Assembly: GCA_951406725.2 (NCBI GenBank)
Contig: OX597822.1
Coordinates: 81,778,001-81,842,000 of the forward strand
Source: Octopus vulgaris
Lineage: Eukaryota
Direction: 5' to 3'
Length of the DNA stretch: 64,000 nt
Both the position numbers and the translations under genes were made by a program. Under the pieces are notes generated by a model. The model was given only the letters and a program-made list of their open reading frames with translations, searched no databases and was not told the DNA's origin. Shown here piece by piece: positions 1,270 to 48,530 of the stretch; position 1 is the stretch's first letter; each line of letters starts with the position of its first letter.

Positions 1270-1312
1270 TCCAGAGACTAGTTTCTGAGTCATTGCTCAT
1301 CATCGGTCTGGA
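1270..1312 (-). ncRNA. Minimal type I hammerhead ribozyme motif (PLE-type, U4C variant)
   Basis: Minus strand: TCCAGA-CCGATGA-TGAG caatga CTCA-GAAA-CTAG-TC-TCTGGA. This gives a 6-bp stem I, a 4-bp stem II, a palindromic CTAG stem III and a GUC cleavage triplet. The core differs from CUGANGA only at position 4. Confidence 0.7.
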
Positions 1313-1508
1313 GTAGCATGGCTTGCTAGCTGTTGATGTCTATCTACCTTTGTAAGCATATAATAAATTCTAGTGAAATACATTCAAAAACAAAACGATG
1401 CTTTTACATCATTTCAGTCTTTGCAGCTAAAAGCTTTCAAAGAAATAACTGCAGAGTTGTCCACATTACACATGTCCTGGGTATTCTGAATTATGCCGTG
1501 TTCTATAG

Positions 1509-1572
<64 letters not shown>

Positions 1573-2399
1573 TTCTTTTAAATGATTTTCATAAGTGTTA
1601 CCAAAGATACCGTTTTCACCAGACAACAAGGAGTCTCAGTCCGGTGCTCTAACAGATGTATTTATGAGTTAATTACATGGTTAACGGTCACAGATATGTT
1701 GTAAATGGCTGGATCACTTGCCAAAACAATAAAAGTAATTTATGTTCTGTAATGAATGCATTGGTATTGTACCATGAAAAGATGGATGTAAAATGATGAT
1801 GTTGATAATGTAGCTCTCACTAAAAACTTGTAGTCATGTGTTTCTGTTTGAAATTATCGTTATAAATATTATATTATTACTGTTATTATAAATCATTATC
1901 ATCATCATCATTTAACACCTGTTTTTCCATGCTGGCTTGGGTTAGATGGTTTGACAGGAGCTGGCAAGATGGAGAGCTGCACCAAGCTCTAATTGTCTGT
2001 TTTCACAAGGTTTTTATGGGTGGATGCCCTTCTTAATGTCAACCACTTCACAGAATGTATTGGGTGCTTTTTATGTTGGCACCAATAGAGAAGTGATTTG
2101 CTGAAAGGTGGATAAGTGTTGAGAACAGTTCAGGTGAATTGGTTTACTCTCAGCATATGCCATGTACAGAGAACACATTTTGCAGGGGCACTTGCTCTTG
2201 GTAGTATAACCCTTAATGTGAGTAGCTCCTTGATTGGTCCTTACACCCCCCCCCCCCCCCCCCGCCTTTTTTTTTACATGCCTTAGTTTTCTATGCTGGA
2301 TTCTTTTTATTAATGTAATTGATTCTGTGGAGACTCCCCAGTATTTATAAATTACTCTTGTAATACACCCCTTGTCTGTGATTTTGTGACAAAGTAATA

Positions 2400-2810
2400 C
2401 AATCATTATGATTAATATTTTATCTTGTACAACACAGCAACTGTGCTGGAGACTGTGACAAAGTATCCTCTATCTGTAATCACTGGACTGAGGGTTATAT
2501 TCTTCATTTAGATTTCAAGAATTCTGTGGATGGTTTGTGCAGTTCCAAGCAGCACTGTTCTCTGTAGATTGCTCTATTTTCACATTTACCTCTATCTTTT
2601 CAATCTAGTTTGTGACCTTCATACTTATTGTACCCAGAGCTCAAATAAAAACATATATATAACTCTCAACTTCTTCAACGAACCCAGTAATTTAATTTCC
2701 CATTTCAAATCATGTCTCACTTGTCTTCTCTTTCTCATACTCTGTCATCATCAGAACCTGCAATTTCTATGATTAAACAGGTTTTTCCTTCTTTATTCAT
2801 ATACATTTGA
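2400..2810 (-). mobile_element. Decayed 3' end of an R4/Dong- or NeSL-like non-LTR retrotransposon (restriction-like endonuclease C-terminus)
   Basis: Minus-strand translation with stops and frameshifts gives NKEGKTCLIIEIAGSDDDRV...DLKWEIKLL...ALGTIS...LQRTVLLGTAQTIHRILEI*. This matches the IDVAxP / KYxxL / GALG / LQKxxLLGTAxILRxVL pattern. Confidence 0.65.
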
Positions 2811-2905
2811 ATTGATGTGATTGACTTCACACTCCCTTTAAAATTCCTGGCCTTGTGCTAAAAATTAGAATTATTTACATTTTTGATTATAGTTGTTTTT
2901 TTTTC

Positions 2906-2995
2906 TTTTACCTTTTTTTCTTTTACCTTTTTTTTCTTTTACCTTTTTTTCTTTTACCTTTTTTTCTTTTACCTTTTTTTTCTTTTATCTTTCTT
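2906..2995. repeat. Pyrimidine-rich minisatellite, about (CCTTTTTTTCTTTTA)n x5
   Basis: Directly visible tandem units of 15-17 bp. Confidence 0.85.
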
Positions 2996-5862
2996 AGGTG
3001 TGTAGGTACATCTATTTATCCCTGTTAAAATTATCATCTAACTTTTAACTAACATGGAAAATCTGTTTTAGCAATATTTGGCAAGCCTCCCTCAAATTAC
3101 ACCCTACTGTCTTAAGAGAGGAGGCAGACACTTTAAACAATGTTGTCTTTGGTATACAATGTCCATGTAAAAACTCCTGGCTCTGTTCAGTCTTAGTTAA
3201 CCTGAGGATAAGCAACAAAAAGAACACCCTTTAATTCTGTAATATACACCCATGAGAGTGCAAATTTATTTTTTTACAACATTGTTAATTTCTATTATGT
3301 CCCACATACACATACTTGCATGCATAAATATGTATGTGTGTGTGTGTATATATATGTATGTACACACACACACACACAAGTATGTTTTTTCTAAATATAT
3401 AACAAACTAGGTCATTGTATGAAAAGCAAGGAAGTGCAGCTGGCAAGTTCTTGGATTTAATTTTTGATTCTTAGAAACGCCCACCAAAAACTTTCTTTTT
3501 CCTATGCCACCGCCATCATCATCATCAGCAGCAGCACCATGGTGGTGTTGCTGGTGGTGAAAAGACAGTAATTGATTGAGTGCCAAACTAAATTCTTGAC
3601 ACTACTTAGATTCTACCTCCAGCTGTATTTTAAGGTCTTACTGGGGTTTTAATTTTAATTTCCATCTGTCTCAGTATGAATATAGTAACATCTAGATTAA
3701 CATTTAATTAATTGACTAATATACACCAACCTTCTTGGAAATATGGGGGGGGGCTGTACTGTAAACTTGTAAGAGACTCAATCAGACAACAATTCCAAAG
3801 TCGTAAGGAACTGACAAAAAGTAAAGTTGTCTTCCCTTCTGAGACCCCTTCATAAGTGAAGCCATGATCAGCATCCATTTGGCTGGACAAGCAAGATTAC
3901 CTAAGACTATATTATCCAATGCATCTTTACTCGTTTAGTTTTTAGGGTGTGAAAGTATCTACACATTTAAGTCTGAGGCATATCTAAGAGATTAATTGAT
4001 AAATTCTTTAACAAAATAGCTTTGAAATATGAAAACTTTGATACGATTAGACTGTTATGAATGCGAAATATTTATATCTGGAGTTTTAGGCTTCTGTAAG
4101 AAATTGTTAGATAGACTCTAGTCATGCTACTCCTCTCTGGCCAAAAACCCGTTCTGCTCTGGCCCTTTTCTCTCATACTTCTCACTCACTCCTTATTTTA
4201 TGATCTTTAAGTTCCCACCCCTCACTCAGCGTGTGTCATCTTTCAAGTTGCATGGCAACCACACTGGTGCTGGTGGCATGAAAAGAAACACTCAGTACAC
4301 ACTGCAAAGTGGTTGGCATTATGGAAGACATCCAGTTGTAAAAACCATGCCAAACAGACAGTAGATGACAATGCAGTCCTTGGACCCACTGGATCCAGAA
4401 ACCAGCCAACCCATACCAGCATGAGACATGGATGGTAAATGATGATGGTCGTGGTGGTGGTGGTGGTGGTGGTGGTAGTTATAATGGCTTTGTAAGAATT
4501 TATTTTATATACTTTTTATTATGAATGATATCAGTGTTTAATATACTGCTATGAAGGCAAAAGGCTTCTGTTTAGCTTCAGGTCAGTCCTGACTGTGCAA
4601 ATCTATGATCAATAGAATTGCTACCATGATCATCCTGACATTTTGTCAGGAAACTATATTATCCAATGTGTCCTACTTTCTTGAAAATGATAGGATGTGA
4701 TCTGATAGTGAATTACTTAACTGCTATTTCTAGGAGATCAACCAGCTGCATAGTATCACCAACATTTGTTTGGAGGTTAACAGTTGAAATGTAAGAACCT
4801 GTGTTATGTAAATAATCATTAGATAGACTCCGTAATAATTTATTTTATTTAGTTTTAAAATACAAACTTTATGTGGAGCATATGTAAGGAATCCTTACAT
4901 AAACTTTTTAACAACTTTATTTTACACAGATTTAGTCATGTTCAGTTGTATGTGTCTAAAAGTAGATTATATGATAAATGAAAGTATTCAATTTCATTTT
5001 CTGTGAACATTCTTCAAGAAGTCAGCATTTGAGGGTGTTCTTGTGTTATATTACATTTTAACCAAACCACCTACACACTGGAATCAGATGTATTGAATAA
5101 ACGATTTCTTAATAAGGCCATTGGATATTGTAAATTGTCAAGAGTTAAACTGTCTTTCGTGATATAGCTCTGTCCATCTTCAGTTTGAGTTCAAACCCTG
5201 CTGAAGTTAATTGTAGCTTTTCTCCTCGCTGGAGGTAAGCCAATTTAATCAACTGACTGATACTTTATTTTATTGACCTCAGAACAATTAATGGTTAAGT
5301 TCATCTGGGCAATAAAAATAACTGTAGAAATAACTATTGTAGTAACAATCTTGTTTTGTTGTTGTTGTAGCAGTTTGGAAGAAACAACAACAGAAATTGA
5401 AAAAAAATAATAATAATGATAACAATTGTGAGGAAAAAAATTATATAACTTTTCCAAGAAGTCATTACACTAAAGTTGCATTGTAACGCAATAAATATGT
5501 TTATCATGACAATTGTTTTTCATGAAGATCGCATTTCTAAATTGTTTAATGTTTAAACATTTCTGCTTTTCTATGCCAACCAGTGTTCAATCTTGTACAT
5601 CTACTTTGTAATTCTTTCATTACTACTTAGGCAAGTAGAGCTGAAAAGCTATGTTTTGCTAATGAGGCCAGAATATAACTAAACAGATCCAGAGTTATTT
5701 CCCATGCTTACCAAAGCAAAAAGTGCAGGCATGGCTATGTTGTTAAGAAGTTCACTTTGCAACCACCTGGTTTCAAGTTCAGTTACACTGCACTGCAACT
5801 TGGGCAAGTATCTGCTATAGCCCTAGGCCAACTAAAGTTTGTTAGATGGAAACTCTGGAATC

Positions 5863-5895
<33 letters not shown>

Positions 5896-6320
5896 GCTTG
5901 ACAATTGGTGTTGGTTTCTTTATGGCCTCATAACTTAGCATTTCAGTACGAACTGGAAGCAGTGCTACACACTCAGACAAGCAGTAATGTATCATGTATA
6001 GAGAGTTGAGTGTGATGGTGTTGACATATTTCGAAGCAGATGTGATTTAAGCTTCTCTTGAAATTGAATTCAACATAAGAAAAACCAACAAGTCATTTAT
6101 CAGTTTTTCAAAGCTGCCACTGCTTGCAGTAGTAAGCAGTAATATTACCCTGTGGTAGTCTGTTTATTGTTAAGTGCTTTAGTTTCTATTACAACTAGTT
6201 AGGAGGAATAACATGCAAACTGCTAACCTTTCTCTTTTTTTTCTTTTGCTGGCTGTCTAGCACCTTATTAATATAACTATCCTTCTTCTAAGTATAATAC
6301 TACATTAGAAATTCCAGGAG

Positions 6321-6373
<53 letters not shown>

Positions 6374-6736
6374 AGACCAAAGTGTACGTACGCCGCTATG
6401 TATATAAAATACAAAATGGGACAACAAAACATCCAGATAGACGATACAAAGAAAACAAGGATGGGTCATTCAGAGTTTTCTTTCTTCAGTCGAGTACCAG
6501 ATTATCTTCGCAATTTCGGCTGATTATACTCAAGATTGCTTCAATCTGGCCAGTCCCAAGGAAAAACTAAGCTAAGAGCATTATATTCCTTGGAAGAAAG
6601 CAGCAGATGCATACAAAAACAAGGACGAAAAAAACAATGTTACACAAATACAATAAAAATAATAATAACAGGATGTAACAACAGGTGTCCTTCCACGAAT
6701 TAAATTAAGCTGACATGTGAGGAAATGAAGCCTTAT

Positions 6737-6928
6737 ATCTCCAGCTGGCTATACGACACGATCTATGTCCTTACATTTTCGAACAAGGGTATCTAGCATC
6801 TCTGCTCAGCTCAAAATAATATCTGTATATCACGATTTCTGGGTATTGTTTTGAGCTGAGTGGGGATGCTAGATTACCTTGTTCAAAAATATAAGGACAC
6901 AGATTGTGTCATATAGCCAACTGGAGAT
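6737..6928. mobile_element. Foldback/MITE-like near-perfect palindrome
   Basis: The left arm ATCTCCAGCTGGCTATACGACAC...GCTCAGCTCAAAATAATA is the reverse complement of the right arm TATTGTTTTGAGCTGAG...GTGTCATATAGCCAACTGGAGAT. Arms are about 85 bp with a spacer of about 20 bp. Confidence 0.75.
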
Positions 6929-7512
6929 GATATTTCCTAGGGTTAAATTACAGTAGCATTAGTCCTAAATCAGGACTGCCATGTTATGTTGGCAAGCAAT
7001 CTTTACTACAAAGTACTGTTGCTGAATATCTCATGTTATGAGATTTAAAAATAGTAATTTTCTAAGAAAGGATTTTGCTGTAAAAAATATAAAAATAATA
7101 ATAATAAAATGATAGTGTTTAGTGTGTATAAGTAACAAGAATTGGAAGAGTGATGACGGTGGTGACAGCAGTGTCAAAAACCTGAGACTGTAATGTGAAT
7201 TCAATACCCATTCAAACCATTTCAGTTCACTTACTCCTTGTTCCTGTAATTTCTGGTTGCAGTCAATCACTTGGAGAAAGAAGACTTGTTCACAATTCTT
7301 GAAGGGAAGTTAAAACTTCCATTGGGGTCCTAACAACCTTAAATAATGATTTCTAACTTTGTGCAAATTCAAAAATTCTCTCAAGGTAAAGAGTGCATTT
7401 AATTGGATAATCCCAGTTTTTTTGTTTTGTTTTTTTAGTTACTACTTATTTCATTGAGCCTGGAAGGATAAGAAAATTGGAAAAGGTTATAACAAAATGC
7501 AAGACCTTTAGT

Positions 7513-7742
7513 TTAACCCTTTCGTTACCAACCCAGCAGAAACTGCTTCTGGCTCTGTAGTACAAATGTCTTGTTTTCATAAGTTTTGAATAAAAATCTT
7601 CCACCAAACCTTAGTTACATTTATGTTCCTAACACTAGCTTAATGATAACTAAGTTATTGTACTAAATTCTTTGTTATATTTAAAATTAATTGAAAGAAA
7701 CACAGAACATCTCAACAGAAATATAGTAAGAAAAAGGGTTAA
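7513..7742 (+). mobile_element. piggyBac-type MITE, copy 1
   Basis: TTAA|CCCTTTCGTTAC...GTAAGAAAAAGGG|TTAA: TTAA target duplication and CCC/GGG termini. Near-identical copies at 7766-7987 and 39314-39541. Confidence 0.85.
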
Positions 7743-7765
7743 AATATATAATAGAGAAACAATTC

Positions 7766-7987
7766 TTAACCCTTTCGATACCCACCCAATTGTAACTGGC
7801 TTTGGCTCTGAGTACAAATGTCTTGTTTTCAAAAGTTCTGAATTAAAATCTTCCACCAAACCGTAGTCACAATTTATATTCCTAACACTAGCTTAATAAG
7901 TTATTTTACTAAATTCTTTGTTATATTTAAAGTAATTGAAAGATAACATGGAGCATCTCAAAATAAATACAGTAATGAAAGGGTTAA
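7766..7987 (+). mobile_element. piggyBac-type MITE, copy 2
   Basis: TTAA|CCCTTTCGATAC...GTAATGAAAGGG|TTAA, with the same internal sequence as copy 1, 23 bp downstream of it. Confidence 0.85.
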
Positions 7988-8189
7988 TGCTTCAGACTCT
8001 GCCATTCTACCACCCTGGATATATCAATACTAATAATAATATATAACTGAGTTTATTCCAGATGAGTCATGGATAGTTGGGTTTATAAAGGGTTGAACGA
8101 CTGGCTGAAGGATCAGATGTTTTTTTTATCATTGTCACTGATAGTTATTGTTCTTAGTATTGTTATTTATCCTTAGCTGAGTCCTCAGT

Positions 8190-8552
8190 AAACCATCCTT
8201 CCATCCATATTCTTTGCCCTGGAAAGGTCATGGGAATAAAGTCCTCAGACTCTTCCACTGTAGGGTCCTATCAGCAGCAGCTGTCATGACACTTTCTGGC
8301 TGGATTCCCAAGCATGACCACCTAAGACTGTGGATATCATCCAACCATCTCATCCTTGGTCTGCCCTTAGATCTCCAGCTGGTTGGTTCAGCTTGAAGAA
8401 TCCATCTCGTGAGCCTTTCCTTCAACACTGATCACATGTCCATAGCACTAGAACTGTTGCCTCTCAATGTGGAGAAATAGTTTGTTTGACCTGGGGAGAC
8501 TCCTTGATCTCCAGGTTACCCATTCCGTCAAATAACATTACTCCAAAGATCC
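8190..8552 (-). mobile_element. Decayed RTE/RTE-X LINE ORF C-terminus
   Basis: Minus-strand translation gives RIFGVMLFD...IERQQF*CYGHVI...ERLTRWILQAEPTSWRSKGRPRMRWLDDI, matching the RTE WxGHV...R.RGRP..RW.D motif. Confidence 0.75.
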
Positions 8553-10384
8553 TATGCAATAAACCTATTAACGAAAATCATTCTAATCCTGATTACCCCA
8601 TTTGTGACATGATGATATGTAGGACAAGATAATTCAAAGAGTTCTTCCTTTTTGAAGATGATAAAGTGTGATTTGAAAGAGATTTGGCTGCTACTTCTAG
8701 CATGTTGAGCAACCACATACAGATTTCTGCATTGGCTCATCTTACCACTGTTGTGGTGTGCTGTTAATCTAGTGACTCAGTTCACTTGGTTGTAAATGGA
8801 TACCAATATTTTTGTTTTTGCAACTGTTGTCCCTATTCTGCCTGTTTTTGCCATTTCCTGTCTTCATTATTCATTCCATCTTTTCCCCCGCTTTTGTTTT
8901 CTTCTTTTGTCTTCTTCCCATCCTTCTTTTACCATCTTTTAGTCAAAGTATCCTTTGTCACCTTCTTTTCCTTTCCTCATCCCTTCTTCTTCTTCTTCTT
9001 ATTATTATTATTTTTACCCCCACACATCAACAGTTAGCATCCCCACCATTCATAACATTGTCAACACTGACTCCTGTCAGTCTGGAAAGTTCTGTATCAG
9101 TATAAAATATACACTCTGAAATTCTTGACCATATTTATAGCATTTTTACATTAGAACATCATTCATTTTTCTCCCTTTTCTTCTCTCATGTCCACTAAAA
9201 AGAGTACAACAATGTATTCTAAAATTAGAACCCATTCTATTGGCTGTCTCTTACTAGAAATAATTATGCAATTGTTTTCCTTTATACCACAAAACTACAA
9301 TTTAAAAATACAAAAAAAAAATGTATGAAAAAGAAAGCATTCAATGGGCGTTGGTTTGTTGGTTATTTCACATTCTTTCTATTAAGCATTGCTTTTGAGA
9401 AAATTGCCAAGTGTTTTAGCATTTTTCAATTCCAAGTCAATTAAATAACACCTTGACTCTTTTCTTGGGGATTTAACTATCAACTATTGTAGCTTTGTTT
9501 TCCAATGCATTTCATTATATTTGTAGCTCAGTGTTGCATGTAATGCAGTGCAACATGCTATTGGCCTTATCGATCAGCTAAATTAGCTCAGAGTAAAACA
9601 CATTATCTTTTATCATTTACCTGTTTTAGTCATTTGGCTGTGGCCATGCTGGAACACTGCTTTGAATTTTTTTTTTAAGCCTAGCAGTTATTCTCTTGGT
9701 CTCTTTTGCTGAACCACTAAGTTACAGGGGATTTAAACACACCAACACCATTTGTCAAGCTGTAGTGAGGAGCAGACACACACACAAGTGGCTTTTTACA
9801 ATTTTCATCTACCAAATCCACTTACAAGGCTTTGGCTACAGTAGAAGACATTTTCCCAAGGTGCCATGCAGTGGGACTGAACCCAGAACCATGTGGTTAG
9901 AAAGCAAGCTTCTTACCACACAATCACACCTGCGCCTATTAACTCATACTGTCTTGAGCTCACTGGCTCTTCATACTGACTTGAGCTCACTGGCTCTTCA
10001 TACTGATTTATCCTCATTGATTCTTCAGACTGGATTAACGTTTGGATTTTGCTTGCTGTCTCTTTCATTTGGCCTTTGTTTACTGGCTCTTTTATCTGGC
10101 TTTGAGCTTGCTGGCTCTCAGGTCAATTTGTTGCCCTAAACCCTTGCTCAAACAAAACAGGGAAGAAAAGAAATAGAATTTATATAAAAAATGAAAAAAG
10201 GCATTGGAGGGGCAATGCATACCTTGCGTGCAGATAAATATTTTTCGCAAATTATAGTGAGGCTTACAGTGTATTACTTACCCGTGCTTTTTAATTAAAC
10301 TGAATTAAGTTTTGTAAGTGTTTGACTAAAAGTGGATTAGAAGCCTAAGTAGATGACAGCTAAAAGTAGACTTGATAAAATATT

Positions 10385-17363: not shown

Positions 17364-17395
<32 letters not shown>

Positions 17396-17859: not shown

Positions 17860-18221
17860 TACTCTTTTACTTGTTTCAGTCATTTGACTGCAGCCATGCT
17901 GGAGCACTACCTTTAGTCGAGCAAATTGACCCCAGGACTTATTCTTTGTAAGTCTAGTACTTATTCTATCGGTCTCTTTTTGCCGAACTGCTAAGTTACA
18001 AGGACGTAAACACACCAGCATCGGTTGTCAAGCGATGCTGGGTGGACCAACAGAGACACACAAACACACACACACACATATATATCTATATATATACGAC
18101 GGGCTTCTTTCAGTTTCCATCTACCAAATCCAGTCACAAGGCTTTGGTCGGCCCGAGGCTATAGTAGAAAACACTTGCCCAAGGTGCCACGCAGTGGGAC
18201 TGAACCCGGAACCATGTGGTT
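17860..18221 (-). mobile_element. SINE family S1 copy interrupting an older inverted repeat
   Basis: Reverse complement of S1, truncated at the head. The flanks (about 17770-17860 and 18222-18247) both match the reverse complement of 18530-18665. Confidence 0.8.
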
Positions 18222-18257
18222 TGTGTCTTGCAACCTATTCAATAGTCATACAGCTGA

Positions 18258-18400
18258 ATATATAGTGCAGTACAGCTAGATACAGATGAAATGCATGCTT
18301 TAGAACTACCACCGAAATTCGCTACATATAAAAAGGTCAGAAAAATTGATTGTCAATCTGAAATTGAAAAAAATGTTCTTAAAATTAAGATGGAGGTTAG
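18258..18400 (+). pseudogene. Penelope-like element ORF N-terminal fragment
   Basis: IYSAVQLDTDEMHALELPPKFATYKKVRKIDCQSEIEK, then after a one-base slip in the A-run MFLKLRW. This matches the PLE N-terminal L..dE...L.L.PKF...E.E....KLRW pattern. Confidence 0.55.
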
Positions 18401-18531
18401 GACAATACAACAACACAAACATACAAAGCCAAAACAAGGACGATGTTGATGACAACAACAATAGCGGCAATAACAATAACAACAATTATAACCACATTTC
18501 CCACTCAAACAACTAAAATGAGAGTCAACGA

Positions 18532-18568
18532 TTATTGAAAAGGTTGCAAGACACAATGAAAATTTTAG
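18532..18568 (+). ncRNA. Decayed minimal hammerhead motif with a U3-A8 core
   Basis: TTA-TTGAAAA-G-GTTGC aagac ACAAT-GAAA-AT-TT-TAG. Reverting two CpG-type transitions gives a perfect GTTGC/GCAAC stem II. The inverted copy at 18222-18247 supplies CTA for stem I. Confidence 0.45.
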
Positions 18569-18729: not shown

Positions 18730-19239
18730 TAATGTAATAACTTCCTCACACTCATACCCTTGCACACATTACACCCTCCACACTTCCCTTGCCTTCCCTT
18801 TGGCTTCATACTTACACCCACTCCCATTTCTTCACATCCTGGCTTTCCTCAGACAAACCCCCACTGATCTTACCACCATACTCCCACACTTGCACACTCT
18901 GTCACACATACATTCATCACTCTCCTCATCTGCTGATTTCCAAACATGGATACACTTCTATCCTTGCACATACACGCCCCTGCTTTCTTCTTGTTTTAAT
19001 TCCCTACCACCACCCCACACACACAGAACTGCATTCCAACCTGACTAAAAACTCCTTGCCAGTGGTTTTATTTCTTTCTCACCAACTTTTCCTCTTTCTA
19101 CTCCTCTCTATTCCGATGAAGGACTAATGTCCAAAACATTAAGCTTCTTACTCCTAAGCATTAATCTAACACAGTGGTAAACACTGTATCCTGCCTGAGT
19201 TTTCTTGTATATTTTTCCCTTTTATTGTTCCTTGCATTT

Positions 19240-19245: not shown

Positions 19246-19289
<44 letters not shown>

Positions 19290-23084: not shown

Positions 23085-23405
23085 ACTGGTGCTCCGTCAA
23101 TTACAATGGTGACTGTTCCAGTTGATCCAATCACCAAAATGGCCTTGTGAAGATAACGTGCAAGTGGCAGAGCACTCCACAGACACATGTGCCCTTAATG
23201 TAGTTCTCAGAGAGATTCAGTGTGACACACAATGTATCAAAATTGGCCCTTCTGAATTACAGGTACAATTAATTTTTGTCAGCTCAGTGAGCTGGTGCAA
23301 CATGAAATAAAGTGTCTTACTCGAGGGCATATTGTGCCAATGGGAATTGAACTCATGACCTCACAATCATGAGCTGAATACTTTACCCACTAAGCCACGC
23401 TCCTT
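23085..23405 (-). mobile_element. tRNA-derived SINE sharing its 3' body with family S3
   Basis: Minus-strand head GTGGCTTAGTGG...GAGTTCAATTCC. The 3' part matches 44330-44500. A related copy lies at about 21915-22160. Confidence 0.7.
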
Positions 23406-24089: not shown

Positions 24090-24265
24090 AATTATGGAGA
24101 TGTACTTGCATAGCAAGTGACCTGATCTGAGATTGTGTGCTGAAACAAAAACAGTTACAGCATGGACGGTGTTTATAATCCATTTAAAATATTTAAATTT
24201 AATTTGTCAAAATATTTTTGTCACTTTGAGACCGCAACCAGTTCACTGACAAAATTCCATGCTGT
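24090..24265 (-). repeat. PLE pLTR-like repeat copy 1, with hammerhead-like motif at 24203-24253
   Basis: Direct repeat of 24585-24797. Minus strand: TTTGTCA-GTGAACT-G-GTTGC ggtctcaaa GTGAC-AAAA-ATAT-TT-TGACAAA. Confidence 0.6.
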
Positions 24266-24584: not shown

Positions 24585-24797
24585 TTACGGAGATGTACTT
24601 GCATAGCAAGTGACCTGATCTGAGATCGTGTGCTGAAACAAAAACAACTGCAGCATGGAAGGTGTTTATAAGCCATTTAAAAACACACAAAAATCGTTAG
24701 ATTCACTCCAACATTTAAATTTAAATTTAATTTGTCAAAATATTTTCATTGCTTTGAAACCATGACCTGTTCACTGACAAAATTCTGTGCTGCACGC
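24585..24797 (-). repeat. PLE pLTR-like repeat copy 2, with G3-C8 hammerhead-like motif at 24731-24781
   Basis: Minus strand: TTTGTCA-GTGAACA-G-GTCAT ggtttcaaa GCAAT-GAAA-ATAT-TT-TGACAAA. Stem I is a perfect 7 bp. Both copies converge on a GTCGC/GCGAC stem II when CpG-type transitions are reverted. Confidence 0.6.
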
Positions 24798-31381: not shown

Positions 31382-31415
<34 letters not shown>

Positions 31416-31920: not shown

Positions 31921-31959
<39 letters not shown>

Positions 31960-34826: not shown

Positions 34827-34900
<74 letters not shown>

Positions 34901-36829: not shown

Positions 36830-36885
<56 letters not shown>

Positions 36886-38432: not shown

Positions 38433-38690
38433 TTCTATATTTGAGAGATGAGGGATTATATACATTATTTACATTATCTACATTTGACAGATATTTGTCC
38501 TCATCTTGTTTGTTGTTAACAAAACGTTTTGGCTGAATAATAATAATAATAATAATAATACCTTAGGAATGAGAACCCAGGTTCGAAATTTCCCCAAGAC
38601 ACCTGATGAAGGCTGGAGTGTATATCAGCCGAAACGTTGTGTTAACAGCAAACAAGATGAGGACAAATATCCGTCAAATTTAAATAATGT
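38433..38690. mobile_element. Inverted pair of the hammerhead-bearing element H, inserted in the RTE remnant
   Basis: 38433-38536 is the reverse complement of the element's 3' part, and 38537-38690 is a plus copy starting in (AAT)n. The flanks TTTTGCCACCT (38422-38432) and TTTTTCCACCC (38691-38701) match at 9 of 11 positions, a probable target duplication. Confidence 0.8.
38598..38643 (+). ncRNA. Minimal type I hammerhead ribozyme with an intact canonical core
   Basis: GACAC-CTGATGA-A-GGCTG gagtgtatat CAGCC-GAAA-CG-TT-GTGTT. Stem I is 5 bp and stem II is 5 bp. Stem III is a loopless palindromic ACGU, as in dimer-type HHRs, with a GUU triplet. Confidence 0.75.
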
Positions 38691-39313: not shown

Positions 39314-39541
39314 TTAACCCTTTCATTACTGTATTTATTTTGAGATGCTCTGTGTTTCTTTCAATTACTTTAAATAGAACAACGAACTTGGTAAAATAAC
39401 TTGGTTATCATTAAGCTAATGTCAGGAACATAAATTGTGACTAAGGTTTGGTGGAAGATTTTATTTCAGAACTTATGAAAACAAGACATTTGTACTACCG
39501 AGCCAGGGATGGGTTCAGCTGGGTTGGTAATAAAGGGTTAA
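39314..39541 (-). mobile_element. piggyBac-type MITE, copy 3
   Basis: TTAA|CCCTTTCATTAC...GTAATAAAGGG|TTAA, the reverse complement of the 7.5-8.0 kb copies. Confidence 0.85.
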
Positions 39542-40361
39542 TAGGTTCAGCTATGAGAATGAGGTCATTAGCCTAAAGGACTTACCCTTGTCAACCAAGT
39601 TTAAACTCTTCTATCATGGCTTGGATAACAGTAATAAACAGGAGGGCCTAAGTGCTGAACCCTGATGGACACCTTGCAAGTTGAATTCCTTGTTGAACTT
39701 ATTACTAAATCTCATCTTGCTGACACCTCTGTACATGCCTTGCACATCATTCACAAGATATTCACTTCCACCATTCTTGTTTCAAAAACTTCTGGATCCA
39801 GTTTACTGCAGAATCCCATTTCTATCTCAGCCACAAAACAATAAGCACGAACTGAAAAAAACAGAGTTTGTTTTTGGCTTTTAGGTTTCCAAATAACTAT
39901 TAATAAAAGGAAGTAAACTTTATTACAAAATGGCTGTTGAGTCATGGTTGTAAAGTTAAACAAAAATCAAGCAAATAAACATTGGGAGCATATCACTGAC
40001 AGTGTTAATGGGGGAAACTTGACCTTGGTATTTTTACCAAATTATGGTAATCTGAGGTCAGATTCTTTACAAGTATCCTCTCTTGGGGTAACATTACTGG
40101 ATAACAGGGTGGGATTGTAAAGAATCTGTTCTCTCAGAAAACTAAAACTTGTTATTCTTTACTTGTACATTACGGTTTACTTTGTTTATGTGTTCAAATA
40201 TAACAGCAAAACAATCCAGTTTCGCAGACAACTTACCATTAGTGAATCATCACCATCATTCTCATCATCATCATCATCATCATCATCAACATCTTGGACA
40301 TTGCTGTCGAGTTCTGGGATTCATAGGGCCACTTGCCTGGTTTTCATGGCATAATATAAGT

Positions 40362-40617
40362 CAGTGGTTCCCAAAGTGGGCGATATTGCCCCCTGGGGGC
40401 AGTGGAAAGTTCCAAGGGGGTGTTGAAGGGGAGCAATAACGGGGTAGTGATTCATGTAAAAACAACAAAATAATGGGTTTATTAGGTTAAGTTTTATTTG
40501 TGAAATACAGTTGCTTTGAATTTGCTTCAGAAAGAGGTTTATGGTTGTGATGGGGGCGCTAGGAATGTGGCCTGGGTGTCAAAGGAGCGGCAGCCTGAAA
40601 AAGTTTGGGAACCACTG
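40362..40617. mobile_element. hAT (Charlie-like) MITE
   Basis: TIRs CAGTGGTTCCCAAA / TTTGGGAACCACTG, with an 8-bp duplication ATATAAGT / ATACAAGT. Confidence 0.88.
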
Positions 40618-41399
40618 ATACAAGTCACAAAGATTACAACATTCCCCATGGATTGGAGTAACATGAAATGAAGTTGTTTTGCTCAAAAACACAGCACACT
40701 GCCCAGTCCAGGAACTGAAACTACAATCATACAATTGTGAATGCAATGCCCCAACCACTTAGCCATGCATCTTTATTAATGACTATTTTCTTTCGTTCTC
40801 ATTGATGTAAAAGACAATCAACATCATCGTCGTTTAACATCCATTTGCCATGCTGGCATGGGTTGGATAATTTGACTGAGGACTGGTATGCTGAGAAGCT
40901 GCACCAGGCACCAATCTGATCTGGTAATGTTTCTACAGCTGGATGTCCTTCCTAACGCTAACCACTCTGAAAGTGTAGTAGGTGCTTTTTATGTGCCATC
41001 GACACAGAAACCAGTCAGGTGGCACTGGCATTGGCCATGTTCAGATGATGTTTTTTTATGTGCTACCTGCACAGGAGCTAGCTGGGGCAGGAAGGCTGGC
41101 ATCGATAATGTTTGGATGGTGCTTTTTACATGCCACCAGCAGAGGGAGCCAGCCAGGCGGTACTGGCAATGACCCACACATGAATAGTGCGTATTGCATG
41201 GCACCAGCATGAGAGCCAGTCAGGTGGTACTGGCATCAGCCACAACTACAATTTCCATTTGATTTTTGATTTCACTTGATTCATTAGGTCTCCTCAAGCA
41301 CGGCTTATCACCCGATACCTTTTTCTTTTTAATTTTTATAATGTTGATGTACACAGGACAGGTCTTTCCTTCACAATATCCACATCATATAAGTGTGAT

Positions 41400-41740
41400 A
41401 TAAGAGGGATATGATGTCAACATCCACAGACTTGCACAACTGTGTTAAGTTCCAAGTTTTCAGGGACTTTCTTGTTGTAGATCTTTTAAACAACATTAAG
41501 AACTGCTTTGATTTTTATCACTGAAAGGGTCTTGATCATGGCAGTTTCATGGGGAATAAAACAATAAGTTGTAACTATTTCTGGCTTCATGTTTCCAGCC
41601 AACATTACAAAACCCTTGAGGGTAACCATACTTGTATGATTTTTCTCAAGAGTCTCGTAATGCCCTACTTGTAGCATTATCAGTGTAAATTCCAACACAG
41701 TTATTCCAAGATATTTCTGGGGCTGTGAAGTACAAGCTTA
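41400..41740 (-). pseudogene. Decayed hAT (Buster/Charlie-type) transposase fragment
   Basis: Minus strand ISWNNCVGIYTDNA...GFVMLAGNMKPEIVTTYCFIPHETAMIKTLS...AVLNVV resembles W..CVGICTDGA...G.......P.I..THC.IHRE.L..K.L. Confidence 0.7.
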
Positions 41741-42019
41741 GAGTTACAAAAATATCTTTTATCAGTGCCAGTTGCATTAAGCTCCTTTAGGAAAGAAACT
41801 TGTTAGGATATATAATCTTTCTGAGTAAACATAACAAACCTCGTTAAGTGACATTTCCCTGTTATGCCTGCTTTTCCACCATCGTCTTGTAGGGTACCTT
41901 TTATCTTGTACCTTAGTTATTACAATCATTGGACTGCAGCCATGCTAAAGCTCTGCCTTGAAGGGGTTTTTCAGTGGAACAAATGGACCCAGTAATTATG
42001 TTTTAAGTCTGGTATCTGT

Positions 42020-42465
42020 TGTGTCAAGCATGAAGAGTTGGTGAGAATGTTGGAAGAACTCGAGATTGATGGGAAAGATCTAAGAATGATTTGAAATTTG
42101 TATTGGGGCCAGAAAGCAGCCATCAGAGTGCATGGAGAATTGGGCAACTGGACTGACATTCAGAAAGGCATCTGGCAGGGTTGTATTTTATCACCTGATT
42201 TATTCAACTTGTATAGTGAGAAAGCTCTAAGCAAGATCAAGATAATCGCAGGGCTACAACTGAAGGAAAGGAATTATAACAATTTGAGGTACGCTAATGA
42301 TACGGCTTTGTTTGTGGACACAGAAGAGAAGCTACAGGGATTGATTAATATCATGACTGAGGAGAGTGGAAAGCTTGGATTGACGATTAACTGCCAGAAA
42401 ACCTTCTCAGTGGTCTGTACCGAGAAAGCACAAGTACCCGCATGTCGCTTGACGGTGAATGAAAC
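42020..42465 (+). pseudogene. RTE/BovB-like reverse transcriptase fragment
   Basis: KHEELVRMLEELEIDGKDLRMI*NLYWGQKAAIRV...KGIWQGCILSPDLFNLYSE...NNLRYANDTAL...GLTINCQKT. The catalytic YADD is mutated to YAND and there is an in-frame stop. Confidence 0.9.
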
Positions 42466-43073
42466 TTTGCCTTTCATCCTCTCACTGCCTAGAGCAGAAA
42501 AGACTGTGAGTGAAGACATTTGCTGAGGGTTCTGTGTAGTGAGATGGAACTTGAAGCCACATAGCTGCAAACTGAACTATTTAATTACATACCTTTAGGT
42601 GTGCTTACACACACACACACACACTCACACACACACACACACACACACTGGGCTTTTGCACAGCTTCCATCTGTCAAATTCTTTTCCCAAGGTATTGGTT
42701 AACCCAAGACTGTAGTAGACGATACTTAAGACACTTGCTAAAGCTGTCAAACCAGGAGCTATATGGTTGTTAAGCAAGTTTCTTAACCACAAAGCTATGC
42801 ATGCATCTCTGTATACAGAATGAAAAGGGATACCGGAAATAATGTAAAAATACTTGAATATAAACCTTATGATGATTATGTAAGAGCTGTTTTGTCACAG
42901 GTTTTGAGAGATGATTTTTGTAAAATAATTTTCATAAAATTCTTTTTGTAAAACAGTCTTCCATTGGTGATTGACAGATTTAACCCATCTGTAATTAGAA
43001 TTCCTTCTAGAGCAAATAATTTTCTTGTCTACACTCAGACACAAGTTCAGACTTCTTATTTGTTAGGGAGTAA

Positions 43074-43544
43074 TCTATATATATATAACTCAACTTGTGT
43101 GTCTGTGTGTTTAACTTCCCGGCACATCTCCTCCTAGCCAACTAATCATAGAACCACCAAAAATGGGTCACTTAAAGTTTAGGCAAATGAAAATTGAACT
43201 GCGCTATTTCTGTTCCGAAATTCATCTCGCAAGTGCAAAAATCGATAATGTGTCCCATGCATTGAATAGTGAACTTTACTCAGTCAGCTGTTTGATGTGA
43301 ACTGTGTTCACCACGCGTGCAAGCATGCATAAATTGCATGAAAAATAAAAAAATCAAGATATAAAAACGAATCGCCGTAAACATTGTAGAAATTCGGCAA
43401 GGAAATGAATTTTCGGGATGTAGCCTGGAGGGTTTTTTCGTATTAATCGTTTGGATTTTGTAAACACATACCAATTGTTTTCATAACATTTTTAACGCTT
43501 TGAATTGAATGTGACCATTTTGCAAAGCCGGGCAATACTGCTAG
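43074..43544 (+). mobile_element. Non-autonomous Helitron-like element
   Basis: Starts A|TCTATATATATAT, followed by a TGTCTGTG tract, and ends ...GCAAAGCCGGGCAATACTGCTAG|T. It has the 5' TC and 3' CTAG termini, an AT target and a degenerate subterminal hairpin. Confidence 0.7.
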
Positions 43545-44076
43545 TCTTTTCATAAGATACTGAATTTTTCTGCAATGCAGAGTATGCATCTGTTGGATTC
43601 CTTCATATATGGGGACTGGTCATTTTCGGTGACTCACCAACCTATTTCAATGTTATCTCTTTGTACTTTAAGGTGTCAGACTTAGACAATGACGTTTATG
43701 TATTTTGGATGCTGAAAATAGATTAGATGTTACATAGATATTTTAAAAATTAAATGAATTGAGTGTCAGACTGGTAGTCATATTTTGCGTGTACGTGCAT
43801 GTGTGAGCACATGTATCAGTGTGTGTATATATGTGTGTATGTACATCCTTCATATCTACCATATAACTGCATTTCAATCTTGATAAATTGTAGCTATTTC
43901 CAAGCAGTATCATCCTTATATAAAAACAAATTTTCCAACTAATTTTTAATGTCTGTGTGTGTGTGTGCGTGCGCGTGCACACACACTCAACAAACATAAC
44001 ATAAGGCACACAACAGAATATACTTCAACACACGAACTCACATAAAGAATCTTGCAAACCAAATCCAAAAACGAAA

Positions 44077-44116
<40 letters not shown>

Positions 44117-44126
44117 TATAAAATAT

Positions 44127-44502
44127 GTGGAGGTGCAATGGCCCAATGGTTAGGGCAGCAGACTTGCAGTCATAGGATCACAGTTTCGATTCCCAGACTG
44201 GGTCTTGTGAGTGTTTATTGAGCGAAAACACCTTTAAGCCCCATGAGGCTCTGGCAGAGGGTGGTGGCGAACCCTGCTGTACTCTTTCATCACAACTTCC
44301 TCTCACTCCTTCTTCCTGTTTCTGTTGTAGCTGTATTTCAAAGGAGCCAGTCTTATCACGGTCTGTGTCACACTGAATCTCCCTGAAAACTACGTTAAGG
44401 GTACACCTATCTCTGGAGCACTCAGCCACTTGCACATGAATTTCATGAGCAGGTTGTTTCATTGATCGGATTACTTGTAACCCTTGTTGTAACTGATGGA
44501 GT
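44127..44502 (+). mobile_element. tRNA-derived SINE family S3
   Basis: Head with A-box TGGCCCAATGG and B-box-like GTTTCGATTCC. The body is shared with 23085-23290 and 22050-22160. Confidence 0.75.
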
Positions 44503-45156
44503 TTCATGCTATATATATATATATACTGATCTTTGTTTTTATGTTCTGTTATAATAAAAACAGTTTTACATTAATCTTAAGGGTTACTCCATACTTTTGT
44601 AGAATACAAATTTATTATTATTTAATAAGACTAGCATTGACAGGGACTTCAAAGTTTCATTCAGCTGAGCCATCATTGGACTGTCTGGTAATTGCTTAGC
44701 TGGGCAAAAGTTTGAAGTCACTGTCAATACTATTCTTGCTGAAGAATAACATGTCATTATCATATTCATCATTGTTTAATGTCAGCTTTCCATGCTTTCC
44801 ATGGGTTGGATGGTTTGACTGAGGTCTGGAGAGCCAGTGGCTTCACCAAGCTCCAATCTGATTTGGCAATGTTTCTACAGCTGGATGCCCTTCCCAATGC
44901 CAACCACCCTGAGAGTGTAGTGGGTACTTTTTACATGCCACTAGCACAAGAGCCAGTCAGGTGGCCCGGGCATTGATCGTGTTTGGATAGTGCTTTTTAT
45001 GTGCCACCAGCATGGGAGCCAGTCAGGGGGAACTGGCATTAGCCACGTTTGGATGGTGCTTTATATGTGTGTTTATTTTTATGTCACTCCTCTTCAGGTA
45101 AAAGTATAATATAATATAAGAGAGAGAGAGAAAGAGACATATAAATTTGTACATAT

Positions 45157-45335
45157 TTGGTGCCTTATAATTTAACACACACACTGGTAAAAATTCTATT
45201 TATTTATTTTTTTTTTATTTTTCTAAAACTATTGACAATTTTAGAAAAATAAAAAAAGAAATAAATGGAAATTTTACTGGTGAGTGTGTTAAATTATAAG
45301 GTACCAAAAGAGAATGACTCTCCCCAGACAAAACA
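45157..45335. repeat. Palindromic inverted pair of the 18530-18720 repeat family
   Basis: TTTGGTGCCTTATAATTTAACACAC...TTTTCTAAAA, then ctattgac, then AATTTTAGAAAA...GTGTGTTAAATTATAAGGTACCAAA. A further piece of the family lies at 44008-44080. Confidence 0.75.
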
Positions 45336-45357
45336 GTATATAAATATATATATATAT

Positions 45358-46210
45358 AAGTTCTTTAAAAATTTATCTTAATATTTCTATTCGTTGTTAC
45401 TACGTTTATTCATACATTGTTACGAAAATTTAACCTTTTAAGGCTACTTTCAAGCCTTCGCCATAACTTGATTTATCTTTCTATCTCTCTCTCTACAAAA
45501 TTTAACCTTAGGCTAGGCTACCTCAAGCCGTAATCCCATCTCTTCCCATCTCTTTCCATCTTTCAGCCATTTGGCGGTCTTTTTTCCTCCTCTTACCATT
45601 ACGATTCTACAATTTAAATTCCCAATTCAACTAACTTACTTCTTCAATTTCAACTCCCGACCGATGTCCGCAGCAAGTTCTTTAAAAATTTATCTTAATA
45701 TTTCTATTCGTTGTTACTACGTTTATTCATACATTGTTACGAAAATTTAACCTTTTAAGGCTACTTTCAAGCCTTCGCCATAACTTGATTTATCTTTCTA
45801 TCTCTCTCTCTACAAAATTTAACCTTAGGCTAGGCTACCTCAAGCCGTAATCCCATCTCTTCCCATCTCTTTCCATCTTTCAGCCATTTGGCGGTCTTTT
45901 TTCCTCCTCTTACCATTACGATTCTACAATTTAAATTCCCAATTCAACTAACTTACTTCTTCAATTTCAACTCCCGACCGATGTCCGCAGCAAGTTCTTT
46001 AAAAATTTATCTTAATATTTCTATTCGTTGTTACTACGTTTATTCATACATTGTTACGAAAATTTAACCTTTTAAGGCTACTTTCAAGCCTTCGCCATAA
46101 CTTGATTTATCTTTCTATCTCTCTCTCTACAAAATTTAACCTTAGGCTAGGCTACCTCAAGCCGTAATCCCATCTCTTCCCATCTCTTTCCATCTTTCAG
46201 CCATTGGCGG
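45358..46210. repeat. Tandem repeat, 317-bp unit x about 2.7, nearly identical copies
   Basis: The unit start AAGTTCTTTAAAAATTTATC occurs at 45358, 45675 and 45992. Confidence 0.95.
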
Positions 46211-47178
46211 TGCGCCCGCCCCCCCCCCACCCCCACCACCAATACCGATGAACACTGTTCTCACCCCCACCACCAATACCGGTGAACACTGTTCTCACCG
46301 CCAACACCACCAATACTGGTGAACACTGTTCCTCACCCCCCACCACCAATACCAGTATACCCTGTCCTCACCATCTACACCGGATACGCCTTACTCATCT
46401 ACACCGGGTACGCCCTACTCCCTCCTCCTCCCCCCACTACCCCTTCTCCTCATATGCTTTCACTGTGAAAAGACAAGCTGCTAGCGCCATAGCTCATCAA
46501 CTGCCCACCGATCTTACGCTTCCTCCTGACACTGCTTCATTCCGACTATCCCCCTTTAGCACCCTCCCGCCTCGTAATATCCTACGTTTTTATTTCTTAG
46601 GAACCTACACCAACCCTTCCTGCCATCGTTCCTCCTTACCCCAACCTTCCCCACTGGTTGCTCCCCTATATTACCCACCTCAACTGGACCCCCCTCCCCA
46701 ACTCAACTCTAGAATATCTGTATTCTTTCCTCTACCTAATAACGTTACTCAGTGACGATAACGAATGTCTTTATTTCTTAGGAACCTACACCAACCCTTC
46801 CTTACTCAGTGACGATAAATGCTGTGACTACAAAGACCCGGGCTGCTTTCTGCAGCAATTCCACATAACCCCCTACTCATTCTAAGTACCCCGGATCCCC
46901 AAAGTACCCTGGATCCCCAAAGTACCCCGGACCTCGTTGCCCCCGTGCCGCTGACACGTTAAAATGCTCGAACCGATCGTGACGATGCCGGACCCTCCGG
47001 CCCCTGTGCAGGTGGCACGTAAAAAGCACCCAATCCACTCACGGAGTGGTTGGCGTTAGGAAGGGCATCCAGCCGTAGAAACTCTGCCAGATTCAGACTG
47101 GAGCCTGGTGCGGCCCCTGGCTTCCCAGACCCGGTCAAACCGTCCAACCCGTGCTAGCGCGGAAAGCGGACGTTAAAC

Positions 47179-47214
<36 letters not shown>
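45358..47214 (+). mobile_element. Putative young non-autonomous composite retroelement (317-bp monomers, C-rich VNTRs, RTE 3' tail)
   Basis: Bounded by (TA)n on both sides and CpG-rich throughout. It ends in an undecayed family-R tail with about 12 GAT repeats and has no recognisable ORF. Confidence 0.55.
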
Positions 47215-47782
47215 ATATATTAAAATCAAAATAAACAACAGGATGTCAGTGCCGGACTGACTTGGTGCTTTAACTTAAGTATCTAATTCAACTGAATCTC
47301 AATTATATATATACATAAAAGGATGAAAGGAAGAAAATTTTTTTCCCTTTCATCATTATTAACAATGTGTATTACTATAATAATCCCTAACATATCATCA
47401 AGATTTTCTCCTTATAAGTTAGTGATAAACCAGTGAAATTTTTGGACTATTTAATCTCTAATGAGGATCTGTCATCCTCAAATTGACTATATATATGTAT
47501 GTATGTATAGAGAGTTTGAAGTGGTGTACAGGAGGTGGTCAAAATTTTGGACAATCCTTTATTAGCACTTTCATTTTCTGAACTTGTTAACACAAAATCA
47601 AAATGGTAAAAACAGAACATTTTGTTGTTCATTTATATGAATTGGATGTTTTTCTGCTTTGTTTAGATGAGAAATTTTTTTTTTTTTTTGAAAAAAGCAG
47701 GAGACAGAGAGAGAAAGAAAAAAACAAAGGGGATTGAATAGAGAGAGAGGTTCCAGAACAATATATATATATATATATATAT

Positions 47783-48267
47783 ATCAGAATCGAAATCGAT
47801 CAATGGAATTTGCGGATGTGTTACCAGTGCCGGTGGCATGTCGAAACTCTACTTGTGAAAACCCGTTGAGGCAAGTGAGGATCAGAATCGAAATCGATCA
47901 ATGGAAATTGCAGATGTGTTACCAGTGCCGGTGGCATGTAAGAGAACTTTCCGTTTCGCGACCGTTGCCAGCACCGCCCCGTTTCGTGTCCGTTGCCAGC
48001 CTCGCCTGGCCCTCGTGCCGGTGGCACATAAAAAGCACCATCCGTTCGTGGCCGTTTGCCAGCTCTGTCTGGCACCAGTGCGGGTGGCACGTAAAAAGCA
48101 CCCACTACACTCACGGAGTGGTTGGCGTTAGGAAGGGCATCCAGCCGTAGAAACACTGCCAGATTTGACTGGGCCTGACGAAGCCTTCTGGCTTCACAGA
48201 CCCCAGTAGAACTGTCCAACCCATGCTAGCATGGAAAACGGACGCTAAACGATGATGATGATGATGA
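47783..48267 (+). mobile_element. Young family-R (RTE 3' UTR) insertion with a duplicated 5' segment
   Basis: CpG-rich and flanked by (TA)n on both sides. About 57 bp (ATCAGAATCGAAATCGATC...GGTGGCATGT) occurs at both 47783 and 47881. Confidence 0.8.
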
Positions 48268-48390
48268 TATATATATATATATATTGCCAGATCAGATTGG
48301 AGCCTGGTGCAGCCTTCTGGCTTGCCAGTCCTCTGTCAAACCATCCAACCCATGCCAGCATGGAAAGCGGACGTTTGATGATGATGATAT

Positions 48391-48426
<36 letters not shown>

Positions 48427-48484
48427 CCCTCTGTATTTCATATCTTCTCCACAATAATTAATACTCAAACATTTTCTCGCACCT

Positions 48485-48530
48485 TCTCTGATGAAGGGAT
48501 ATATAAAATATCCTGGAAATAGCTGTAAGA
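48485..48530 (+). ncRNA. Minimal type I hammerhead ribozyme motif
   Basis: TCT-CTGATGA-A-GGGATAT ataaa ATATCCT-G-GAAA-TAGCTG-TA-AGA: canonical core, 6-7 bp stem II, near-palindromic (C/T)AGCTG stem III and a GUA triplet. Confidence 0.65.

What the first reader, a model, noticed from the sequence alone, without database searches (positions are those of the whole stretch)
1270..48530. Hammerhead ribozyme set whose cores covary at the 3-8 pair (C-G, U-A, G-C) across unrelated repeat families
Seen in sequence: six unrelated repeats share one grammar of stem I, 7-nt core, usually one extra nucleotide, stem II, GAAA, a short palindrome, UH and stem I'. The cores are CUGAUGA (38603, 48488), CCGAUGA (1270-1312 minus, 19113), UUGAAAA (18535) and GUGAACA (24731-24781 minus). 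Positions 3 and 8 are complementary in all six of these motifs. Established: C3 and G8 form a Watson-Crick tertiary pair in the active hammerhead, compensatory swaps retain activity, and PLEs carry minimal type I HHRs with palindromic stem III that act as dimers. Inference: this genome hosts several PLE-associated ribozyme lineages, including non-canonical cores that CUGANGA-based searches would miss. I cannot tell whether these variants are already described.
Basis: partly seen in the sequence, partly recalled or inferred. Interest (0 to 1): 0.82.

Follow-up and report, generated by a model that had tools for sequence, protein, structure and literature searches.

The report
Octopus retroelement hammerheads with swapped core
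The six motifs are mostly decayed copies of hammerhead-shaped RNAs from the ends of octopus repeats (two are tied to Penelope-like jumping genes, the rest likely are), and three sister jumping-gene lineages carry three different complementary versions of one core pair (C-G, U-A and an apparently unpublished G-C), which suggests the self-cutting fold is still selected, though cutting was not tested.

Summary
All six motifs are at the stated places and belong to dispersed repeat families of an octopus genome. The 3-8 complementarity holds at family level: C-G in four families, U-A (25 of 29 copies) and G-C (81 of 88). Two corrections: the two CCGAUGA cores are private mutations of CUGAUGA families, and the U-A and G-C families are sister Penelope-like (PLE) lineages, not unrelated. 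A third sister lineage has C-G, so one clade shows all three pairs. The G-C hammerhead lies about 1 kb behind a 1,025-codon open RT/GIY-YIG frame in a very young family (about 1% divergence) and folds as a hammerhead. Minimal PLE hammerheads and natural U3-A8, including the exact UUGAAAA core, are published. Natural G3-C8 was not found in ten literature searches, but one key paper was unavailable, and this scan has noted G3-C8 before in phages and protist PLE tails. Against strong catalysis: other amplifying families carry uncompensated A9C, A6U or U4C changes, most copies derive from uncut RNA, and no cleavage was shown. Verdict: new variant of a known kind.

The parts
1270..1312 (-). Canonical-type (6-bp stem I, 4-bp stem II) type I hammerhead motif; family core CUGAUGA, this copy has a private U4C change; C17
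   Evidence: folds with stems I and II, z -2.68; homologous to a U3-A8 family
18221..18250 (-). Short inverted piece of the U3-A8 element end, the inverted 5'-truncated arrangement typical of PLE insertions
   Evidence: profile match E 0.001; sequence
18258..18446 (+). Fragment of a PLE open reading frame, 47% identical to residues 158-225 of the G3-C8 family's protein
   Evidence: tblastn E 2e-12
18532..18568 (+). U3-A8 hammerhead motif (core UUGAAAA, U17); family has a 5-bp stem II and a 3-4-bp stem I; this copy has decayed stems
   Evidence: this copy does not fold as a hammerhead
19110..19143 (+). Relic hammerhead of an old family (family core CUGAUGA; private U4C; G12 reads A; stem I lost)
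24203..24253 (-).
24731..24781 (-). G3-C8 hammerhead motif (core GUGAACA, one extra G, palindrome AAUAUU, U17, 7-bp stem I); stem II damaged by CpG-type changes in this copy
38598..38643 (+). Intact minimal hammerhead motif, CUGAUGA, 6-bp stem II, 5-bp stem I, U17
48485..48530 (+). Hammerhead motif, CUGAUGA, 7-bp stem II, longer palindrome with one private change, A17
49252..49297 (-).
49543..49652 (+). Further decayed copy of the 38603 family (G8A, GAAA lost), inverted to the previous one

Best explanation
The motifs are hammerhead-shaped ends of dispersed octopus repeats, two families tied directly and the others likely tied to Penelope-like retroelements, and the swapped 3-8 pairs are likely compensatory changes kept by selection for the self-cleaving fold in active elements, while most window copies are predicted to be dead. 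Shown: a GIY-YIG frame (with RT where the copy is long enough), then a microsatellite-rich spacer, then the hammerhead on the same strand 0.5-1 kb downstream, in three sister lineages with G3-C8, U3-A8 and C3-G8. Inferred: in element RNA stems I and II fold locally; two motifs (tandem copies or two RNAs, probably helped by the element's protein) pair through the palindrome to make stem III; 3 and 8 pair in the active site; the RNA is cut slowly after N17, trimming or circularising a minority of transcripts. Inferred: U17 in the G3 family avoids the inhibitory G3-C17 mispair.
For: Family-level pair counts: G-C 81 of 88, U-A 25 of 29, C-G 34 of 34, 40 of 48, 24 of 24 and 7 of 9; two further U-A families 25 of 26 and 17 of 17. 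In 800 kb taken at fixed positions, with 3 and 8 left free, 29 of 30 hits in recurrent families were Watson-Crick (7 of the 30 from one tandem array) against 8 of 30 singletons. In 600 kb, 10 of 11 strict hits were Watson-Crick against 0.8 hits per shuffle. Three sister lineages (endonuclease 44-51% identical; two of them sisters with support 99 in a quick tree) share a homologous 5-bp stem II with compensatory changes and differ at 3-8. Six homologous canonical-type motifs show two-sided changes in 11 of 14 pairs, the 3-8 pair being 3 C-G and 3 U-A. The G3-C8 motif is letter-identical in 26 of 26 copies in 16 of 16 loci chosen for long open frames, median ORF distance 0.9%, and its predicted lowest-energy fold is the hammerhead outline. 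Four subfamilies differ in 5 of 9 loop II columns and 0 of 32 core, stem III and stem I columns. In a lizard PLE hammerhead C3G or G8C alone abolished cleavage and the double change partly restored it (PMC11167929 passages).
Against: No cleavage was observed; the read data were contigs only. Amplifying families carry uncompensated core changes: A9C in 9 of 11 copies of the C-G sister lineage including its youngest, U or C at position 6 in a family of 24 copies, U4C in two families. 35 of 69 aligned G3-C8 pieces start 18-29 nt upstream of the core, so they were copied from RNA uncut at that site, and there is no pile-up at the predicted cut. The double-hammerhead dimer scores -28.6 kcal/mol against -32.7 for the best dimer fold and -30.8 for two monomers. 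The monomer fold is not exceptional (z -1.43, 15 of 200 shuffles as good). In the 16 young loci paired copies were all on opposite strands. Flanks also vary little between subfamilies (7 of 59 columns), so that conservation test is weak. Cleavage was not needed for insertion in vitro (PMC11167929).
Confidence: 0.68

Rival explanations
1. The hammerhead fold is kept as a structural signal (for example binding by the element's protein, or a stop or switch point for reverse transcription) and cleavage by the G3-C8 form is negligible.
For: Uncompensated A9C, A6U/C and U4C in amplifying families; 5' ends of copies cluster just upstream of the motif (22 of 28 at 18-25 nt); hammerhead mutants did not affect insertion in vitro and no reads ended at the cut site in the lizard element (PMC11167929 passages); Naiad PLEs spread without canonical hammerheads (PMC8557442 passages).
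Against: The 3-8 pair belongs to the catalytically active conformation (PMC8495972 passages; that it forms only there is recalled), so repeated double changes that keep it are better explained by selection on the active site. The 5' cluster also coincides with a splice-acceptor-like sequence.
Confidence: 0.24
2. The complementarity is a by-product: a few master elements fixed core changes by drift and amplified regardless, and the reader picked motifs that happened to match.
For: Few independent switches (three U-A backgrounds, one G-C); single copies break the pair freely (49252-49297; 8 of 48 in the 38603 family); families were grouped by me.
Against: All 13 family majorities seen are Watson-Crick. 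Dealing position 8 at random among 9 C, 3 U and 1 G families gives 1 in 2860 (families are not fully independent). The descriptor left 3 and 8 free. G-C needs two changes from either other pair.
Confidence: 0.08

Closest known systems
Minimal hammerheads (min-HHR) in the pseudo-LTRs of metazoan Penelope-like elements (Cervera and De la Pena 2014, PMC4209133)
   Same: Type I layout, extra nucleotide before stem II, G10.1-C11.1, palindromic or absent stem III, frequent U17, mostly single truncated copies, inverted pairs; U3-A8 variant described, with UUGAAAA listed for a Schistosoma mansoni PLE (supplement Fig. S3).
   Different: No G3 core and no octopus entry among the representatives I read; no clade with three pair states described there.
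Natural hammerhead core variants (Perreault et al. 2011, PMC3088659)
   Same: U3-A8 covariation in nature; A6C and U4C natural variants with low activity.
   Different: Section 8 names no natural G3-C8; the variant examples it locates are phage and viroid RNAs.
Laboratory C3G/G8C double mutant (PMC11167929; PMC8495972; PMC3884650)
   Same: Same pair; partial rescue of cleavage, also in a PLE hammerhead; G3-C8 reported as less active with C17 than with G17.
   Different: Engineered; here the pair is the natural state of a multicopy, recently active element, with U17.
Non-LTR retrozymes (bioRxiv 10.64898/2026.07.22.740005, abstract)
   Same: The 1270 family is homologous to canonical-type hammerheads found here in 359-nt and 362-nt tandem units.
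   Different: The 1270 copy is a lone insertion; one 362-nt family has U3-A8 and one of its loci has a PLE frame upstream.

Membership tests
Hammerhead ribozyme, type I | Stems I and II flanking the core, GAAA, A15.1-U16.1, H17 | tested here: met
   Met in family majorities except the 19113 family (G12A in 8 of 8); covariation; many single copies fail
Hammerhead ribozyme, type I | Consensus core CUGANGA | tested here: not met
   Met by four of the six families; the 18535 and 24731 families have UUGAAAA and GUGAACA; Rfam models did not hit any
Hammerhead ribozyme, type I | Watson-Crick pair between positions 3 and 8 | tested here: met
Hammerhead ribozyme, type I | Site-specific self-cleavage after N17 | not testable with these tools
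   Only contigs were available; DNA copy ends show no pile-up at the site
PLE minimal (dimeric) hammerhead | Palindrome in place of a stable stem III, allowing a dimer | tested here: inconclusive
   Palindromes present; the modelled double hammerhead is 2-4 kcal/mol less stable than alternatives
EN+ Penelope-like element | Single frame with RT and C-terminal GIY-YIG upstream of the hammerhead, same strand | tested here: met
   G3-C8 family: 1,025-codon frame, GIY-YIG E 1.8e-5; Pfam RVT_1 did not hit it, RT rests on the YVDD motif and on homologues named RT-domain proteins. U3-A8 family: decayed endonuclease. Not shown for 1270 and 19113
EN+ Penelope-like element | 5' truncation, inverted or partial-tandem copies, microsatellite targets | tested here: met
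EN+ Penelope-like element | Clade (Neptune, Nematis, Poseidon, Hydra) | tested here: inconclusive
   No named references in the tree; the clade is deeply separate from the 781-codon family; a Cys-rich linker points to Neptune or Nematis (PMC8557442 passage)

The most novel reading that the evidence does not exclude
An actively spreading octopus retroelement carries the first natural G3-C8 hammerhead in an animal, it really cuts, and its two sister lineages use the other two pairs, so one clade has run the classic 3-8 rescue experiment in nature and shows that PLEs are selected for ribozyme catalysis even though insertion in vitro does not need it.
Probability: 0.4. Interest if true: 0.65.

Novelty: new variant of a known kind. 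Interest (0 to 1): 0.48.

Why it matters
Whether PLE hammerheads do anything for the element is open: they are weak in vitro, dispensable for insertion in the one reconstituted system, and have been suggested to be passengers. A pair of the active site kept through double changes in sister lineages is genetic evidence for selection on catalysis, and gives three matched natural RNAs for a direct test. It also means CUGANGA and UUGANAA descriptors undercount animal hammerheads.

Tried and rejected
Rfam gave no hammerhead hit. The window-only shuffle test was weak. A genome search for the position-6 variant family returned nothing, the tool skipping very common words, so that family rests on 24 copies in fetched loci. 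No PLE frame was found beside the 1270 family in 30 loci and two extended loci, nor for 19113. No RNA holder is on record for the G3-C8 stretch; runs were guessed RNA or unknown, contigs only, so nothing follows on expression or cut ends. My first pair count had stem I two columns out of register and was redone. The tree is the quick one, without bootstrap, and lacks the decayed U3-A8 frame. No recurrent A3-U8 family appeared in the loci scanned, which is under 0.1% of the genome. Rejected: CCGAUGA as family core of 1270 and 19113; 'unrelated' families; reading the window copies as live ribozymes. Lunse et al. (PMC5785218) and Przybilski and Hammann 2007 (PMC1986816) were not held; file 1 and part 3 of file 2 of the PMC4209133 supplement were not seen.

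Full report
Setting. The window is G000:C9:81778001-81842000 of a 2.8-Gb genome. A protein that NCBI labels Octopus vulgaris (P0001) matches this genome at 100% over 44 residues in three places, so the animal is that species or a close relative. The window is repeat-rich.

Observation. On their own they are weak. With a descriptor for stems I and II, GAAA and UH, the window gave 3 sites against a mean of 1.2 and a maximum of 3 in 30 shuffles, and only 38603 and 1270 of the six passed. Rfam found no hammerhead among 76 matches. I therefore searched the genome with each motif and aligned the best 8 to 30 loci. Five motifs belong to families with about 950 to 2,450 first-look candidates; 19113 has 8.

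Family cores. Counting non-redundant copies in all fetched loci: the 24731 family is GUGAACA with G-C in 81 of 88; the 18535 family UUGAAAA with U-A in 25 of 29; the 1270, 38603, 48488 and 19113 families CUGAUGA with C-G in 34 of 34, 40 of 48, 24 of 24 and 7 of 9 (two of those nine look like false pattern matches). CCGAUGA is private: 2 of 34 in the 1270 family and only the window copy among 8 in the 19113 family, where G12 also reads A in 8 of 8. Stem II is a perfect 5-bp helix in the majority of both non-canonical families but is damaged by CpG-type changes in the window copies.

Is the covariation more than chance? In 600 kb taken at fixed positions, a strict descriptor with 3 and 8 free gave 11 hits, 10 of them Watson-Crick (7 U-A, 3 C-G), against 0.8 hits per shuffle in 5 shuffles. 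In 800 kb with only G5 and A9 fixed, 29 of 30 hits in recurrent clusters were Watson-Crick (7 from a single tandem array) against 8 of 30 singletons. All 13 family majorities I saw are Watson-Crick, 9 C-G, 3 U-A, 1 G-C; random assignment gives 1 in 2860, an overstatement because families are related and grouped by me. Among six homologous canonical-type motifs, including the 1270 family, 11 of 14 pairs change on both sides and the 3-8 pair is C-G in 3 and U-A in 3; no shuffle of 500 and no slid register matched this (six sequences picked by me).

What carries them. Most copies are short 5'-truncated ends, often with an inverted partner. Two of 30 loci of the U-A family have a decayed GIY-YIG frame ending 0.55-0.7 kb upstream on the same strand, and the window copy has a PLE frame fragment directly upstream (18258-18446). 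Two of 27 upstream-selected loci of the G-C family have a related frame, one with an RT motif. Searching with that endonuclease found 150 matches of a young subfamily; 18 of the 30 loci returned hold the motif within the 1.5-kb flank, one with G8 and one partial. In 16 loci I chose for the longest frames, 16 have it about 1 kb behind the stop and all 26 motif copies are identical from stem I to stem I'. One frame is open for 1,025 codons with a GIY-YIG domain (RVT_1 did not hit, RT rests on YVDD and named homologues); median distance over the last 1,200 coding bases is 0.9%. No variant at G3 or C8 reached 5% in contigs of four runs under four organism codes. So G3-C8 is the state of a recently spreading autonomous element.

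A clade with three states. P0001 is the sister of the G-C family's protein (support 99, quick tree), and four of four loci of its lineage have a C3-G8 motif about 0.5 kb behind the frame. The three endonucleases are 44-51% identical and the three stems II are homologous with compensatory changes. A distant 781-codon PLE family (RVT_1 and GIY-YIG) has UUGAUAA downstream in 13 of 25 cases, and a 99%-identical U-A family related to 1270 occurs in 362-nt tandems, with a PLE frame upstream in 1 of 30 loci. U-A thus appears in three separate backgrounds. For 38603 and 48488 PLE linkage rests on one locus each; for 1270 and 19113 it was not found.

Mechanism. The young G-C motif's lowest-energy fold is the hammerhead outline: 8-bp stem I, open core, 5-bp stem II (z -1.43, not exceptional). 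By the model of PMC4209133 two such motifs pair through the palindrome to make stem III and cut after N17. In a lizard PLE, C3G or G8C abolished cleavage, the double change partly restored it, and cleavage needed protein (PMC11167929). G3-C8 was reported as less active with C17 than with G17 (PMC3884650), which fits U17 here; but U17 is common in PLE hammerheads anyway, so that link is only inference. I judge slow, dimer- or protein-assisted cleavage most likely (0.68).

Against. Nothing here shows cutting. The modelled double hammerhead is 2-4 kcal/mol less stable than alternatives. Paired copies in the young loci are inverted, though same-strand pairs exist (L004; window 24203 and 24731). 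35 of 69 aligned pieces start 18-29 nt upstream of the core, so came from uncut RNA; 5 start within 8 nt of the cut site, inside the palindrome region, which is not a clear signal. Other amplifying families have uncompensated changes: A9C in 9 of 11 copies of the C-G sister, U or C at position 6 in a 24-copy family, U4C in two families. Insertion in vitro did not need cleavage (PMC11167929). A structural, non-cutting role keeps 0.24.

What is known. Seen: PMC4209133 main text parts 1-2 of 4 and supplement file 2 parts 1-2 of 3; PMC3088659 passages and section 8; passages of PMC3884650, PMC8557442, PMC8495972, PMC6765202, PMC6155905, PMC11167929; abstract and a term search of bioRxiv 10.64898/2026.07.22.740005. 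PLE minimal hammerheads and natural U3-A8 are described, UUGAAAA included. Ten searches returned G3-C8 only as a laboratory variant. Lunse et al., which I recall reports a very large set of PLE-linked variants, was not held and could contain it. Earlier notes of this scan report G3-C8 in phages and in single protist PLE tails (unchecked by me), and nothing on this genome.

Verdict. Real, largely a known kind; the G3-C8 family and the three-state clade are a new variant, with a direct test available. Interest 0.48.

Noticed in passing
L392-L395 about 904-953; L333, L110, L386, L165, L207, L208: A very young PLE lineage (open frames up to 1,312 codons) has a hammerhead motif with C instead of the conserved A9 in 9 of 11 copies; older copies have A9, and N17 changed from C to U in the youngest.
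   Followed up: partly
L168, L181, L187, L194, L200, L205, L311, L383, L385: A common family has U or C at core position 6 (CUGUNGA, CUGCCGA) with intact stems; 24 copies in fetched loci. Not present in the window.
   Followed up: partly
L192, L180, L205; L167, L225: U4C is a family-level state in relatives of the 48488 family (3 of 3) and in another family (8 of 12), though private in the two window motifs.
   Followed up: partly
L372:3062-4560; L351, L357, L368: Retrozyme-like tandem arrays: 359-nt units with a canonical C3-G8 hammerhead, and 362-nt units with a U3-A8 hammerhead, the latter 99% identical across the genome.
   Followed up: partly
L327 about 5400-5425; window about 24795: G3-C8 copies start preferentially about 20 nt upstream of the core (22 of 28), at a branch-point, pyrimidine-tract and AG-like sequence, recalling the intron end next to the Drosophila virilis Penelope hammerhead (PMC4209133).
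   Followed up: partly
L286: A G3-C8 element end lies 1.6 kb upstream of a U3-A8 element's endonuclease on the same strand; L333 holds a G3-C8 element next to two ends of the C-G sister lineage. PLE families appear to insert beside each other.
   Followed up: no
window 45358-46211: A 317-nt tandem repeat, 2.7 copies at 99% identity, flanked by pieces of the U3-A8 element end at 45155-45318.
   Followed up: no
window 6785-6881: A long near-perfect hairpin (Rfam MIR5070 at 53 bits, far below its cut-off of 100), probably a small inverted-repeat element.
   Followed up: no
window 23338-23399, minus strand: A tRNA-like match (31 bits, cut-off 29, E 0.017), possibly the head of a SINE.
   Followed up: no
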